DNA from: Escherichia coli
GTDB taxonomy: Bacteria > Pseudomonadota > Gammaproteobacteria > Enterobacterales > Enterobacteriaceae
Reading direction: 5' to 3' (one strand)
Assembly: GCF_003018255.1 (NCBI RefSeq)
Contig: NZ_CP027440.1
Length of the DNA stretch: 64,000 nt
How positions within the stretch are numbered: position 1 is the first letter of the stretch; each line of letters begins with the position of its first letter. The notes beneath the pieces are model-generated. The model was not told the DNA's origin. It saw nothing but the letters and a program-made list of their open reading frames with translations, and did not search any database. This document shows, in pieces, positions 59,144-62,194 of this stretch. A program made the translations under genes and the position numbers.

Positions 59144-62100
59144 TTACACCTTTTCCACATTCACAAGGAAGGACTTAAACTCCGGCGTCTGCGTGTTCGC
59201 ATCACCGACGAATGGCGTCAACGTATTGGCAATAAAGCCTTTTTTCGCAACACCTTCATAGCCCCAGTGAATCGGAATACCGATGGTATCGATATCTTTG
59301 CCGTTTGCTTTCAGCGTGCGAATACGTTTGGTCACTACCGCTTTGGCTTTGATATAGCCACGGTTGGAGGAGACTTTCACAGTATCGCCCTGGGCAATGC
59401 CAAGTTTATTCGCCAGCGACTCCCCGATTTCCACAAACTGCTCTGGTTGCAAAATCGCATTCAACAGCGCGTGTTTGGTCCAGTAGTGGAAGTGCTCGGT
59501 CAGACGATAGGTGGTTCCGACATACGGGAACTTATCGGCTTTACCCAATGCTTCGGCGTCGTCTTTAAAGATACGCGCAGCCGGGTTCGAGATAACGTTT
59601 GGATGCAGCGGGTTAGTTCCCAGCGGCGTTTCAAACGGCTCGTAGTGTTCCGGGAACGGACCTTCCGCCATCTTATCGAGGGCAAACAGACGTCCCATGC
59701 CTTCCTGCTGCATGATAAACGGCCCTACGCCGCTGCCCGGAGGCGCTGCGCTGTAGTCCGGAATATCCCAGCCGGTCCACTTAGTGCCGTCCCATTTCAG
59801 CAACTGACGCTTCGGATCCCATGGGTTACCCTGCGGATCTGCGGAGGCGCGGTTATACAGAATGCGGCGGTTAAGCGGCCATGCCCATGCCCAGCCCAGC
59901 GTGTTACCGAGGCCAGACGGATCGGCGTTATCACGACGCGCCATCTGGTTACCTTCTGGCGTCCAGCTACCGGCGAAAATCCAGCAGCCACAGGAGGTCG
60001 TACCGTCATCGCGCAGTTGGGCGAACGAGCTAAGTTGTTGGCCTTTCTTGACGATAACCGCACCGGTTGCCGGATCGGTAATATCGGCCAGCGCCTTACC
60101 GTTGCTCTCCATCGCCACTTCTTCCGACTTCGGCTCATGCGGAATGGCGTAGTTCCAGGTCATATTCAGCACCTGGTCCGGGTTTGCGCCACCCTGTTCG
60201 GCATACATCTTGCGCAAGCGCAGGAAGATACCGGAGAGGATCTCGCCATCAGTCAGCGCAATCCCTGGGGCGTCCGCACCTTTCCAGTGCCACTGTAACC
60301 AGCGACCGGAGTTAACGATTGAACCGTTCTCTTCTGCGAAGCAAGTCGATGGCAGACGGAACACTTCGGTCTGGATCTTCGACGAGTCAACTTCGTTCAG
60401 CTCACCGTGGTTCTGCCAGAAGTTAGAGGTTTCAGTGTTCAGCGGGTCGATGGTGACGAGGAACTTCAGTTTCGACAGACAACCGATCACTTTGTTTTTG
60501 TTCGGGAATGAGGCAACAGGGTTAAAGCCCTGGCAGATATAGCCATTGACCTTGCCTTCTTTCATCATCTCGAAGTATTGCAGGACGTCGTAGCCTTTAT
60601 CCCACTTCGGCAACCAGTCAAAGCCCCAGCTATTTTCCGCCGTCGCTTTATCACCAAAGAATGCCTTCATCATTGAGACGAAGAATTTCGGGTAGTTGCC
60701 CCAGTAGTTGACCTGGCCTTCCAGCAGTGGTTTTGGCGTGTTGGCAGCGAGGTAAGTTTGCAGATCGGTCTGCTTCTCGCTTGGCAACGTCATGTAACCT
60801 GGCAGACTCTGCGACAGCAGCCCCAGGTCGGTCAGCCCCTGAATATTGGAGTGACCGCGCAGGGCGTTAACGCCGCCGCCAGCCATCCCCATATTGCCGA
60901 GCAGCAACTGGATCATCGCCATCGTACGAATGTTTTGCGCACCAATGGAGTGTTGCGTCCAGCCGAGCGCGTAAAGGAACGAGGCAGTTTTATCGTGAGC
61001 ACTGGTCTCAGCGATGTATTCGCAGACTTTCAGGAATGCGTCTTTTGGCGTACCACAGATGTTTTCAACCACATCTGGCGTGTAGCGGGAAACGTGCTGT
61101 TTCAGCAAGTTCCACACGCAACGTGGATGTTGCAGGGTAGTATCGCGTTTGGCGAAGCCGTTTTCGTCCAGTTCGTAAGTCCAGGAGGATTTATCGTACT
61201 TACGTTTTTCCGCGTCATAGCCGGTGAACAGGCCATCTTCAAAGCCGTAATCCTCACGCACGATCAGGCTGGCGTTGGTATAGGCTTCGGTGTATTCGCG
61301 GTTGAATTTTTCATTGTTCAGCAGGTACAGCAATACGCCTGACAGGAAAGCAATGTCAGTACCGGAACGAATAGGGGCATAGTAGTCAGCTACCGCCGCC
61401 GTACGCGTAAAGCGAGGATCGATCACAATCAGCTTCGCGCCATTGTGAATTTTGGCTTCCATCGCCCAGCGGAACCCGACCGGGTGAGCTTCAGCGGCGT
61501 TACCGCCCATCACCACGACGAGGTTGGCGTTCTTGATGTCGACCCAGTGGTTGGTCATCGCACCGCGACCAAATGTTGGAGCAAGACTTGCTACCGTTGG
61601 TCCGTGTCAGACACGCGCCTGGTTGTCGACCGCGAGCATACCCAGCGCGCGGGAGAATTTTTGCGTTAAATAGCCGGTTTCGTTACTCGACGCGGAAGCA
61701 CACAGCATCCCGGTGGAGAGCCAGCGGTTAACGGTCACGCCTTCGGCGTTTTGCGCAATGTAGTTAGCATCGCGGTCTTCTTTCATCAGTTTGGCGATGC
61801 GATCAAACGCCTCTTCCCAACTGATTTGCTGCCATTTATCAGAACCTGGCGCACGGTATTCCGGAAACTTCAGACGGCTTTCGGAGTGGATGAAATCCAC
61901 CAGGCCAGCGCCTTTCGGACAAAGTGCACCGCGGTTGACCGGGTGATCCGGGTCACCTTCGATATGGAAGATAGATGCTTTGGCGTTTTTTGCTCCGTCA
62001 CCGAGGCTGTACATCAACAGCCCACAGCCTACGGAACAATAGGTGCAGGTATTACGGGTTTCGCGGGTGCGCAGCAGTTTATACTGCCGGGTTTCCGCGA

Positions 62101-62194
62101 GTGCTACGCTGGGTGCAAAACCCAGTGCCGCTGCCGTGGTGCCTGCCATACCGCCAGCGCAGATCTTAAAGAACTGCCTTCTGCTGACCTGCAT
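59144..62194 (-). CDS. fdoG: Formate dehydrogenase-O catalytic subunit (selenocysteine-containing molybdoenzyme, 1016 aa); in-frame UGA at 61607-61609 read as Sec
   Basis: ORF-track pieces 61607..62194 and 59144..61558 are in the same frame, separated only by TGA; Tat signal MQVSRRQFFKICAGGMAGTTAAALG; fdoGHI-fdhE operon. Confidence 0.93.
61560..61609 (-). promoter_or_regulatory. Selenocysteine UGA codon with SECIS-like hairpin immediately 3' in the mRNA
   Basis: Minus-strand mRNA: UGA-cacggaccaacgguagcaagucuugcuccaacauuuggucgcggug, which can form a stem-loop comparable to the fdhF SECIS. Confidence 0.7.

What the first reader, a model, noticed from the sequence alone, without database searches (positions are those of the whole stretch)
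59144..62194. fdoG is one selenoprotein gene, not two ORFs: in-frame UGA with SECIS hairpin
The ORF track splits the catalytic subunit into 195-aa and 804-aa pieces, but they share a frame and are separated only by TGA at 61607-61609. The mRNA immediately downstream can fold into a SECIS-like stem-loop. The N-terminus carries a twin-arginine signal (RRQFFK), and the Tat machinery is encoded in the same window.
Basis: partly seen in the sequence, partly recalled or inferred. Interest (0 to 1): 0.35.

Follow-up and report, generated by a model that had tools for sequence, protein, structure and literature searches.

The report
fdoG selenocysteine UGA with SECIS hairpin
The two ORFs are one well-known E. 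coli gene, fdoG (catalytic subunit of formate dehydrogenase O), whose in-frame UGA at codon 196 is read as selenocysteine with the help of an mRNA hairpin just downstream; this is correct but ordinary textbook biology that is already annotated.

Summary
The observation and the interpretation are both confirmed, and nothing here is new.

- **One reading frame.** Window 59144-62194 (minus strand) is a single 1016-codon frame. Its only internal stop is TGA at 61607-61609, codon 196.
- **SECIS element.** The 59 nt around and after the TGA match Rfam SECIS_3 (RF01989) at 84.3 bits against a gathering score of 63. The E. coli K-12 fdnG element gives the same score. The element has the defining features: the apical hairpin starts 11 nt after UGA, U17 is bulged, and G23 and U24 sit in the loop.
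- **Cross-species support.** All 121 sampled orthologues from many phyla carry TGA at this codon. Synonymous third positions in the apical stem covary (A-U/G-C/C-G).
- **Protein identity.** The joined protein is 99.7% identical to K-12 FdoG. It matches TIGR01553 end to end. The TGA aligns with selenocysteine 196 of the FdnG crystal structure 1KQF.
- **Annotation and experiment.** RefSeq already annotates one 3051-nt CDS. Published mass spectrometry found selenocysteine at FdoG position 196.
- **Sec and Tat machinery.** selAB, selC and selD are each in at least 5424 of 5426 complete E. coli genomes. The SRRQFFK twin-arginine motif is present. tatABC lie in the window (1190-2757), but 57 kb away and with no operon link to fdoG.

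Interest is low.

The parts
59144..62194 (-). fdoG, catalytic alpha subunit of formate dehydrogenase O: one CDS of 1016 codons plus TAA
   Evidence: Single frame with one internal TGA. TIGR01553 matches residues 2-1015 at 1573.8 bits. 99.7% aa identity to K-12 FdoG against 76.9% to FdnG. RefSeq annotates a single CDS.
61607..61609 (-). UGA codon 196, decoded as selenocysteine (the Mo ligand)
   Evidence: Aligns to Sec196 (X) of 1kqf_A. TGA in 121/121 orthologues. Mass spectrometry found Sec at position 196 in FdoG (PMC3636253).
61554..61612 (-). SECIS element, FdnG/FdoG type (Rfam SECIS_3 RF01989)
   Evidence: 84.3 bits against gathering 63, full model 1-59. K-12 fdnG gives the same score. The 71-nt exact fdoG/fdnG match starts at codon 195.
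61578..61595 (-). Apical SelB-binding hairpin (nt 15-32 counted from the U of UGA). Bulged U17 is at 61593; loop G23 and U24 are at 61587 and 61586.
   Evidence: Coordinates. Feature definitions from PMC8659212. Apical helix 97.6% paired with 2 compensatory pairs. Columns T20 (U17) and T27 (U24) are invariant and G26 (G23) is >=90% conserved.
62096..62194 (-). Predicted Tat signal peptide (codons 1-33). The twin arginines R5 and R6 are at 62177-62182. The ALA|E cleavage site is inferred.
   Evidence: MQVSRRQFFKICAGGMAGTTAAALGFAPSVALA, nearly identical to the FdnG N-terminus in 1kqf_A. The TIGR01409 HMM scores only 10.6 bits, below its cut-off. The literature calls these typical Tat signal peptides (PMC10609526).
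62201..62206 (-). Shine-Dalgarno AAGGAG, 6 nt upstream of the fdoG ATG
   Evidence: Read directly from the sequence; function inferred.
61919..62047 (-). Codons for the four [4Fe-4S] cysteine ligands C50, C53, C57 and C92
   Evidence: Pfam Molybdop_Fe4S4 PF04879 matches residues 44-103.
58229..59131 (-). fdoH, Fe-S beta subunit
   Evidence: TIGR01582 at 478.7 bits. Fer4_11 and Form-deh_trans domains.
57597..58232 (-). fdoI, cytochrome b556 gamma subunit
   Evidence: NF007924 at 453.3 bits (cut-off 341). The FdnI model NF007558 scores only 243.6 bits, below its cut-off of 339.
56671..57600 (-). fdhE, accessory protein for the periplasmic formate dehydrogenases
   Evidence: NF002925 at 604 bits. 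FdhE N-terminal, central and C-terminal Pfam domains.
62388..63221 (+). fdhD, sulfurtransferase for Mo-bisPGD sulfuration, transcribed divergently from fdoG
   Evidence: TIGR00129 at 340 bits. PF02634.
1190..2757 (+). tatA, tatB and tatC (Tat translocase). They lie in the window, 57 kb from fdoG and in a separate operon.
   Evidence: PF02416 and PF00902 hits. Annotation of the collinear strain SCU-171.

Best explanation
The window carries the E. coli fdoGHI-fdhE operon, with fdhD transcribed divergently. fdoG is a single gene for the 1016-residue catalytic subunit of formate dehydrogenase O, a Mo-bisPGD and [4Fe-4S] enzyme.

During translation the ribosome reaches UGA at codon 196. The mRNA just downstream forms a SECIS hairpin whose apical stem-loop begins 11 nt after the UGA. 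That stem-loop has a bulged U17 and loop residues G23 and U24. It binds the elongation factor SelB, which carries Sec-tRNA(Sec) (selC) charged through SelA and SelD. The UGA is therefore read as selenocysteine, in competition with RF2 termination. Sec196, followed by His197, becomes the selenium ligand of molybdenum at the active site.

The N-terminal SRRQFFK signal directs the folded, cofactor-loaded FdoG-FdoH dimer through the Tat translocase to the periplasmic face of the membrane. There it docks on cytochrome b FdoI.

**Shown here:** the single frame, the UGA, the SECIS match and its covariation, protein-family membership, conserved ligand residues, the operon context, and species-wide presence of the sel genes.

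**Taken from the literature or inferred:** SelB binding, actual Sec insertion, Tat-dependent export and the signal cleavage site.
For: - **Frame.** One frame with one internal TGA.
- **SECIS match.** Rfam SECIS_3 at 84.3 bits against 63, full length. K-12 fdnG gives the same model and score, while fdhF hits SECIS_2 instead.
- **SECIS features.** The 11-nt spacing, U17, G23 and U24 are in place (criteria from PMC8659212).
- **Orthologues.** 121/121 matches to a pattern that allowed any TGN carry TGA, across Proteobacteria, Desulfovibrio, a Geomesophilobacter species, Actinomycetota, Chloroflexi, Rokuibacteriota and Eremiobacter.
- **Apical helix.** 97.6% paired, with compensatory A-U/G-C/C-G changes at two pairs. 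Both pairs are made of synonymous third codon positions. 0/500 shuffles reach the observed covariation score, and shifted registers collapse to 26-50% pairing.
- **Paralogues.** fdoG and fdnG are 75% identical overall, but their longest exact match (71 nt, 23 codons, against 12 for the next longest) starts at codon 195.
- **Synonymous sites.** In 23 enterobacterial loci, all 17 degenerate SECIS codons are identical to the window, against 58-59% in the flanks.
- **Protein.** TIGR01553 at 1573.8 bits across the stop. Sec196 of 1KQF aligns to the TGA. C50, C53, C57, C92, H197 and R446 are conserved.
- **Purifying selection on both sides of the TGA, versus K-12.** 3 synonymous and 0 nonsynonymous changed codons upstream; 61 synonymous and 3 nonsynonymous downstream; none in the SECIS.
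- **Sec machinery.** selAB in 5425, selC in 5424 and selD in 5425 of 5426 E. coli genomes.
- **Literature.** Sec at position 196 of FdoG was seen by mass spectrometry and Cys was never seen there (PMC3636253). All three E. coli FDHs have a Sec ligand (PMC6239281). FdnG and FdoG carry typical Tat signal peptides (PMC10609526).
Against: Nothing substantive.

- The minimum-free-energy fold of the 59-mer is not more stable than shuffles (z = -0.77). Thermodynamics alone would not have singled it out.
- The lower helix shows no two-sided compensatory change (83.5% paired). In enterics it pairs better in a register shifted by one relative to the Rfam consensus.
- The generic Tat-signal HMM is below its cut-off.
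- The sel genes are not in the window, so their presence in this particular genome is inferred from near-universality in the species.
- The orthologue sample is the first 120 DNA stretches of a capped scan. It required HGP and GAMTNHW motifs, so divergent Cys-type homologues could have been missed.
Confidence: 0.97

Rival explanations
1. fdoG is a pseudogene inactivated by a nonsense mutation, and the two ORFs are its remnants.
For: A plain ORF finder splits the gene at the TGA.
Against: The TGA is conserved in 121/121 orthologues, and the 75-nt block around it is found in 5425/5426 E. coli genomes. Both halves are under strong purifying selection: 64 synonymous against 3 nonsynonymous changed codons relative to K-12. 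A full-score SECIS follows the TGA. The full-length FdoG protein with Sec196 has been observed (PMC3636253).
Confidence: 0.01
2. There are two separate genes: a 195-aa Tat-targeted Fe-S protein, and an 804-aa molybdopterin protein starting at ATG 61556-61558.
For: Both ORFs have ATG starts.
Against: The Pfam Molybdopterin domain (residues 107-589) and TIGR01553 (residues 2-1015) run continuously across the stop. 1KQF FdnG is a single chain aligned across residues 1-461. The 16 codons between the TGA and Met213 are conserved as coding sequence (HGPTVASLAPTFGRGA). No Shine-Dalgarno sequence is apparent before Met213 (sequence).
Confidence: 0.01
3. The UGA is read through by something other than the Sec machinery, such as near-cognate Trp or Cys insertion, and the hairpin merely slows the ribosome.
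For: UGA followed by C is, from general knowledge, a weak termination context. The hairpin energy is unremarkable.
Against: The SelB-contact nucleotides U17, G23 and U24 are conserved even at synonymous sites. Mass spectrometry never found Cys at position 196, and sel mutants terminate at the UGA (PMC3636253). The Sec machinery is species-wide.
Confidence: 0.01

Closest known systems
E. coli K-12 fdoG (b3894), formate dehydrogenase O alpha subunit
   Same: Same gene: 97.7% nt and 99.7% aa identity, same length, TGA at codon 196, identical SECIS sequence, and the same fdoGHI-fdhE / fdhD context.
   Different: Only three substitutions (V417I, T483A, S689K) and 67 further nucleotide differences in 64 synonymously changed codons. 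This is strain-level variation.
E. coli fdnG (formate dehydrogenase N alpha subunit; crystal structure 1KQF)
   Same: A paralogue with 76.9% aa identity, Sec at the same residue 196, the same Tat-type N-terminus, and an identical 71-nt block containing the SECIS. It gives the same Rfam SECIS_3 score.
   Different: A different locus and operon (fdnGHI). From the literature, fdnG is nitrate- and anaerobiosis-induced whereas fdo is expressed at a low constitutive level (PMC7759655). The window's gamma subunit matches the FdoI model, not the FdnI model. PGAP nevertheless labels the window's gene 'fdnG'.
E. coli fdhF SECIS (Rfam SECIS_2 RF01988), the reference bacterial SECIS
   Same: Same mechanism and geometry: UGAC, 11 nt to the apical hairpin, bulged U17, G23 and U24 in the loop (PMC8659212).
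   Different: A different sequence family. The window element scores 28.1 bits on SECIS_2, below the gathering score of 70. Its apical hairpin is one nucleotide longer (18 vs 17 nt). FdhF is cytoplasmic and has no Tat signal.

Membership tests
Bacterial SelB-dependent SECIS, FdnG/FdoG type (Rfam RF01989 SECIS_3) | Covariance-model score at or above the family gathering score, over the full model | tested here: met
   84.3 bits against 63, model positions 1-59 of 59, E 1.4e-18. Identical score for K-12 fdnG.
Bacterial SelB-dependent SECIS, FdnG/FdoG type (Rfam RF01989 SECIS_3) | In-frame UGA immediately 5' of the hairpin, inside a coding sequence | tested here: met
   TGA at 61607-61609 is codon 196 of an otherwise open 1016-codon frame.
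Bacterial SelB-dependent SECIS, FdnG/FdoG type (Rfam RF01989 SECIS_3) | Apical stem-loop starting 11 nt after UGA, with bulged U17 and loop G23 and U24 (criteria as reviewed in PMC8659212) | tested here: met
   UGA + CACGGACCAAC (11 nt) + GG-U-AGCA-AGUCU-UGCU-CC. U17 is at 61593, G23 at 61587 and U24 at 61586.
Bacterial SelB-dependent SECIS, FdnG/FdoG type (Rfam RF01989 SECIS_3) | Base pairing maintained by compensatory changes across orthologues | tested here: met
   Apical helix: 97.6% paired, with 2 pairs showing two-sided changes at synonymous sites (AU:52/CG:17 and GC:50/AU:15/CG:2). 0/500 shuffles reach the observed score. Lower helix: 83.5% paired with no two-sided change, which is inconclusive.
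Bacterial SelB-dependent SECIS, FdnG/FdoG type (Rfam RF01989 SECIS_3) | selA, selB, selC and selD present in the genome | tested here: inconclusive
   They are not in the window. They are present in 5424-5425 of 5426 complete E. coli genomes, so presence in the source genome is a strong inference, not an observation.
Bacterial SelB-dependent SECIS, FdnG/FdoG type (Rfam RF01989 SECIS_3) | SelB binding and selenium-dependent UGA decoding | not testable with these tools
   Literature only: Sec196 in FdoG was found by mass spectrometry in E. coli MC4100 (PMC3636253). The window's SECIS is identical to that of K-12 MG1655.
Formate dehydrogenase N/O alpha subunit (TIGR01553; Mo-bisPGD DMSO-reductase superfamily) | Full-length equivalog HMM above its curated cut-off | tested here: met
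   1573.8 bits against 814.2, residues 2-1015 on profile positions 1-1009, one stretch.
Formate dehydrogenase N/O alpha subunit (TIGR01553; Mo-bisPGD DMSO-reductase superfamily) | Fe4S4, molybdopterin and MGD-binding domains, with conserved Cys ligands, Sec-His and the active-site Arg | tested here: met
   PF04879, PF00384 and PF01568. C50, C53, C57, C92, U196, H197 and R446 are present. Alignment to 1kqf_A over residues 1-461.
Formate dehydrogenase N/O alpha subunit (TIGR01553; Mo-bisPGD DMSO-reductase superfamily) | FDH-O rather than FDH-N: fdoH and fdoI downstream, flanked by fdhE and fdhD | tested here: met
   The FdoI model NF007924 scores 453 bits (above 341), while the FdnI model NF007558 scores 243.6 (below 339). 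99.7% aa identity to FdoG against 76.9% to FdnG. Synteny with K-12.
Tat (twin-arginine) export substrates | N-terminal S/T-R-R-x-F-L-K motif followed by a hydrophobic stretch and an AxA site | tested here: met
   S4-R5-R6-Q-F-F-K10, then ICAGGMAGTTAAALGFAP, then A31-L-A33.
Tat (twin-arginine) export substrates | Match to the generic Tat-signal HMM (TIGR01409 / Pfam TAT_signal) | tested here: not met
   TIGR01409 scores 10.6 bits against a cut-off of 16.7 (E 0.59). There was no Pfam hit. These short HMMs are insensitive, and the FDH-specific N-terminus of TIGR01553 does match (E 4e-10).
Tat (twin-arginine) export substrates | Export that depends on TatABC | not testable with these tools
   The literature describes FdnG and FdoG as carrying typical Tat signal peptides (PMC10609526).

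The most novel reading that the evidence does not exclude
The nucleotide-level freeze extends beyond the roughly 17-nt apical SelB-binding hairpin. The whole 59-71-nt block is identical between the paralogues fdoG and fdnG, and identical across many enterobacterial genera at every synonymous site, while flanking synonymous sites are only about 58% conserved. In enterics the lower helix also uses a register shifted by one relative to the Rfam consensus. This could mean an extra constraint, such as recurrent fdoG/fdnG gene conversion, or a role for the lower helix and 3' flank in positioning SelB on the ribosome or in competing with RF2. Such a constraint would go beyond the minimal SECIS described for fdhF.
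Probability: 0.12. Interest if true: 0.25.

Novelty: already known. Interest (0 to 1): 0.05.

Why it matters
It matters only as an annotation point. Naive ORF calling splits selenoprotein genes, and the first-stage reader resolved the split correctly from sequence alone. FdoG is one of the three classic E. coli selenoproteins. Its UGA196, SECIS, Tat signal and operon are long established, annotated in RefSeq, and verified by mass spectrometry. No open question becomes newly testable.

Tried and rejected
- **Folding energy as a test of the hairpin.** The MFE is -17.4 kcal/mol with z = -0.77 and 39/200 shuffles fold as well. This was uninformative, so I relied on the covariance model and covariation instead.
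- **Generic Tat-signal HMMs.** TIGR01409 is below its cut-off and Pfam gave no hit.
- **Search for Cys-type orthologues.** It found none in 121 matches.
- **SECIS_2 (fdhF type) membership.** 28.1 bits against a gathering score of 70, rejected.
- **Benoit et al. 1998 (PMC107766).** Not held in the library. I did not read the primary papers that first reported the fdo sequence and 75Se labelling. They are cited only through later papers.
- **Rivals.** The pseudogene, two-gene and non-Sec readthrough explanations were considered and rejected (see rival explanations).
- **Tat genes as a linked feature.** Rejected: they lie 57 kb away in a separate operon.
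Full report
**1. The observation.** Listing ORFs over 56-64 kb gives a 195-aa ORF at 61607..62194 (-) and an 804-aa ORF at 59144..61558 (-). Translating 59144-62194 (-) in one frame gives 1016 sense positions with a single internal stop, plus the terminal TAA. The raw sequence shows ...CGT GTC TGA CAC GGA CCA..., so the TGA sits at 61607-61609 (codon 196). The 804-aa ORF merely begins at internal Met213. The 16 codons between the TGA and that ATG are open in the same frame.

**2. Where the window comes from.** The region is 100% identical over 3.5 kb to several complete E. coli genomes, and a match covering at least 80% of that query is present in 5425 of 5426. The whole window is collinear with, and about 99% identical to, strain SCU-171. 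The gene order is ubiB-tatABCD-rfaH ... rrn operon ... glnALG ... yih genes ... fdhE-fdoI-fdoH-fdoG / fdhD-yiiG. RefSeq annotates the stretch as one 3051-nt CDS. In K-12 MG1655 it is fdoG, b3894, 'formate dehydrogenase O subunit alpha'. The window's gene is 97.7% nt and 99.7% aa identical to K-12 fdoG, with three substitutions, and 76.9% aa identical to the paralogue fdnG.

**3. One protein, not two.**
- NCBIfam TIGR01553 matches residues 2-1015 in one stretch at 1573.8 bits against a cut-off of 814.2.
- Pfam finds the Fe4S4 domain (residues 44-103), the Molybdopterin domain (107-589, spanning the stop) and the MGD-binding domain (894-1009).
- Against the PDB, residues 1-461 align without gaps to FdnG of 1KQF. 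The query's codon 196 falls on the chain's X196, which is selenocysteine. The same holds for Desulfovibrio 'selenocysteine-containing' FdhA.
- The [4Fe-4S] cysteines C50, C53, C57 and C92, together with H197 and R446, are all present.
- Relative to K-12, the part upstream of the TGA has 3 synonymous and 0 nonsynonymous changed codons. The part downstream has 61 synonymous and 3 nonsynonymous. The SECIS codons have none. Both halves are therefore under purifying selection, which excludes a pseudogene.
- Downstream lie fdoH (TIGR01582), fdoI (NF007924 at 453 bits; the FdnI model is below its cut-off) and fdhE. fdhD is divergent upstream. This is the FDH-O operon, although PGAP's generic label is 'fdnG'.

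**4. The SECIS.**
- Rfam SECIS_3 (RF01989) matches 61554-61612 (-) over the full 59-position model at 84.3 bits (gathering 63, E 1.4e-18). It is the only SECIS hit in the window.
- K-12 fdnG gives the identical score on the same model. fdhF hits SECIS_2 instead, on which the window element scores only 28.1 bits.
- Counting from the U of UGA, the element reads UGA-CACGGACCAAC-GG-U-AGCA-AGUCU-UGCU-CC. The apical hairpin begins 11 nt after the UGA, U17 is bulged, and G23 and U24 lie in the loop. These are the features listed as essential for SelB binding in the review PMC8659212.
- The MFE fold is not distinctive by energy (z = -0.77). It places the enteric lower helix in a register shifted by one relative to the Rfam consensus.

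**5. Independent comparative test.** I scanned one genome per species (genome contigs) with a pattern that fixed only the peptide motifs. It required x-H-G-P at codons 196-199 and G-A-M-T-N-H-W at codons 211-217. It allowed any TGN at codon 196 and left the 33 nt between the two motifs free.
- The capped scan returned 120 stretches with 121 matches. All 121 have TGA and none has a Cys codon. They come from Beta- and Gammaproteobacteria, Desulfovibrio, a Geomesophilobacter species, Actinomycetota, Chloroflexi, Rokuibacteriota and Eremiobacter.
- The 70 distinct 59-mers align without gaps.
- On the Rfam structure the apical helix is 97.6% paired. Two of its pairs show two-sided compensatory changes (AU:52/CG:17, and GC:50/AU:15/CG:2). 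Both pairs are formed by synonymous third codon positions (Val/Ala and Ala/Leu).
- 0 of 500 shuffles reach the observed covariation score. Sliding the partner columns drops pairing to 26-50%.
- The third position of Thr200 (G) and the third position of the Ser/Gly203 codon (U24) are invariant, although both are degenerate sites.
- The lower helix is 83.5% paired without two-sided changes, so it is only weakly supported.

**6. Within-genome and within-species evidence.**
- fdoG and fdnG are 75% identical in nucleotides. Their longest exact match is 71 nt (23 codons, against 12 for the next longest run) and starts at codon 195, one codon before the UGA.
- In 23 loci from other enterobacterial genera that share the window's 59-mer, all 17 degenerate SECIS codons are identical. 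Flanking codons for conserved residues are only 58-59% identical. This subset was chosen for sharing the 59-mer, so only the contrast with the flanks is informative.
- The 75-nt block is found in 5425 of 5426 E. coli genomes. The best match is at least 99% identical in 5355 of 5433 records.

The sel genes are not in the window. Queries built from K-12 selAB, selC and selD find them in 5425, 5424 and 5425 of 5426 complete E. coli genomes. Neither half of the stated refuting condition is met: there are no Cys orthologues and the sel genes are not absent.

**8. The Tat claim.** The N-terminus MQVSRRQFFKICAGGMAGTTAAALGFAPSVALA|E has the S-R-R-x-F-F-K motif, a hydrophobic region and an A-L-A site. 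It is nearly identical to that of FdnG. The generic HMM TIGR01409 scores only 10.6 bits against a cut-off of 16.7, and Pfam gives nothing. The assignment therefore rests on the motif and on the literature, which says these subunits carry 'typical Tat signal peptides' (PMC10609526). tatA, tatB and tatC are indeed in the window at 1190-2757. They are 57 kb away in an unrelated operon, so the co-occurrence is chromosome layout and not evidence.

**9. What is already known.**
[quoted passage not shown] It reports that both FdoG and FdnG have Sec at position 196, that mass spectrometry identified the UGA-specified Sec in both, and that Cys was never seen there.
- PMC6239281 and PMC7759655 describe the Sec ligand, the subunit architecture and the expression pattern.

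**10. Verdict.** The finding is a correct reading of a textbook feature. Novelty is 'already known' and interest is very low. The only mild curiosity is that the entire 59-71-nt block, not just the apical SelB-binding hairpin, is frozen across paralogues and genera, together with the shifted lower-helix register in enterics. This may reflect gene conversion or extra constraints, but I rate that as unlikely to be important.

Noticed in passing
window ~42200-50900: The sulfoquinovose (yih) locus differs from K-12. By the annotation of the collinear strain SCU-171, it runs csqR-like DeoR regulator (-), sugar kinase (-), yihU (+), aldolase, a zinc-dependent alcohol dehydrogenase, two MFS transporters and an aldose 1-epimerase. 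It is inverted relative to K-12's ompL-yihOPQRSTU / yihV-csqR, and no ompL, yihQ (sulfoquinovosidase) or yihS (isomerase) is annotated.
   Followed up: partly
window ~53900-56460: Between fabY and fdhE the window has an alpha/beta hydrolase, a small hypothetical ORF plus a NadS-family ORF (possibly a toxin-antitoxin-like pair), and a single CopG-family yiiE-like ORF (56211-56456). K-12 instead has yiiE and yiiF here.
   Followed up: no
window ~28916-28927: The window lacks a ~58-nt insert that strain SCU-171 carries just downstream of spf (Spot 42, 28772-28890). It looks like a REP-type element.
   Followed up: partly
window 59144-62194: NCBI PGAP labels this CDS 'fdnG, formate dehydrogenase-N subunit alpha' in thousands of E. 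coli genomes. Context and identity show it is fdoG (FDH-O), so this is an annotation-naming quirk of the shared TIGR01553 equivalog.
   Followed up: yes
E. coli plasmid NZ_CP159530.1, 197032-197102: An fdnG-type SECIS block also occurs on plasmids: 7 places in the collection, for example on this 298-kb plasmid. This implies plasmid-borne selenoprotein FDH genes.
   Followed up: no
window 61564-61603: In the enteric version of the SECIS the lower helix forms six consecutive Watson-Crick pairs (GACCAA/UUGGUC) in a register shifted by one relative to the Rfam SECIS_3 consensus. The consensus register fits the betaproteobacterial GGCC/GGCC version.
   Followed up: partly
window 63271-63933: The yiiG-like ORF has a GTG start. 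The matching gene in SCU-171 is annotated as a frameshifted, N-terminally incomplete pseudogene, whereas K-12 has an intact yiiG.
   Followed up: no
window 19800-20900 and 1190-3581: Genes needed for FDH-O maturation lie in the same 64-kb window but in separate operons: mobAB (guanylylation of Moco to the bis-MGD form), tatABCD and fdhD/fdhE. This is co-location without operon linkage.
   Followed up: no
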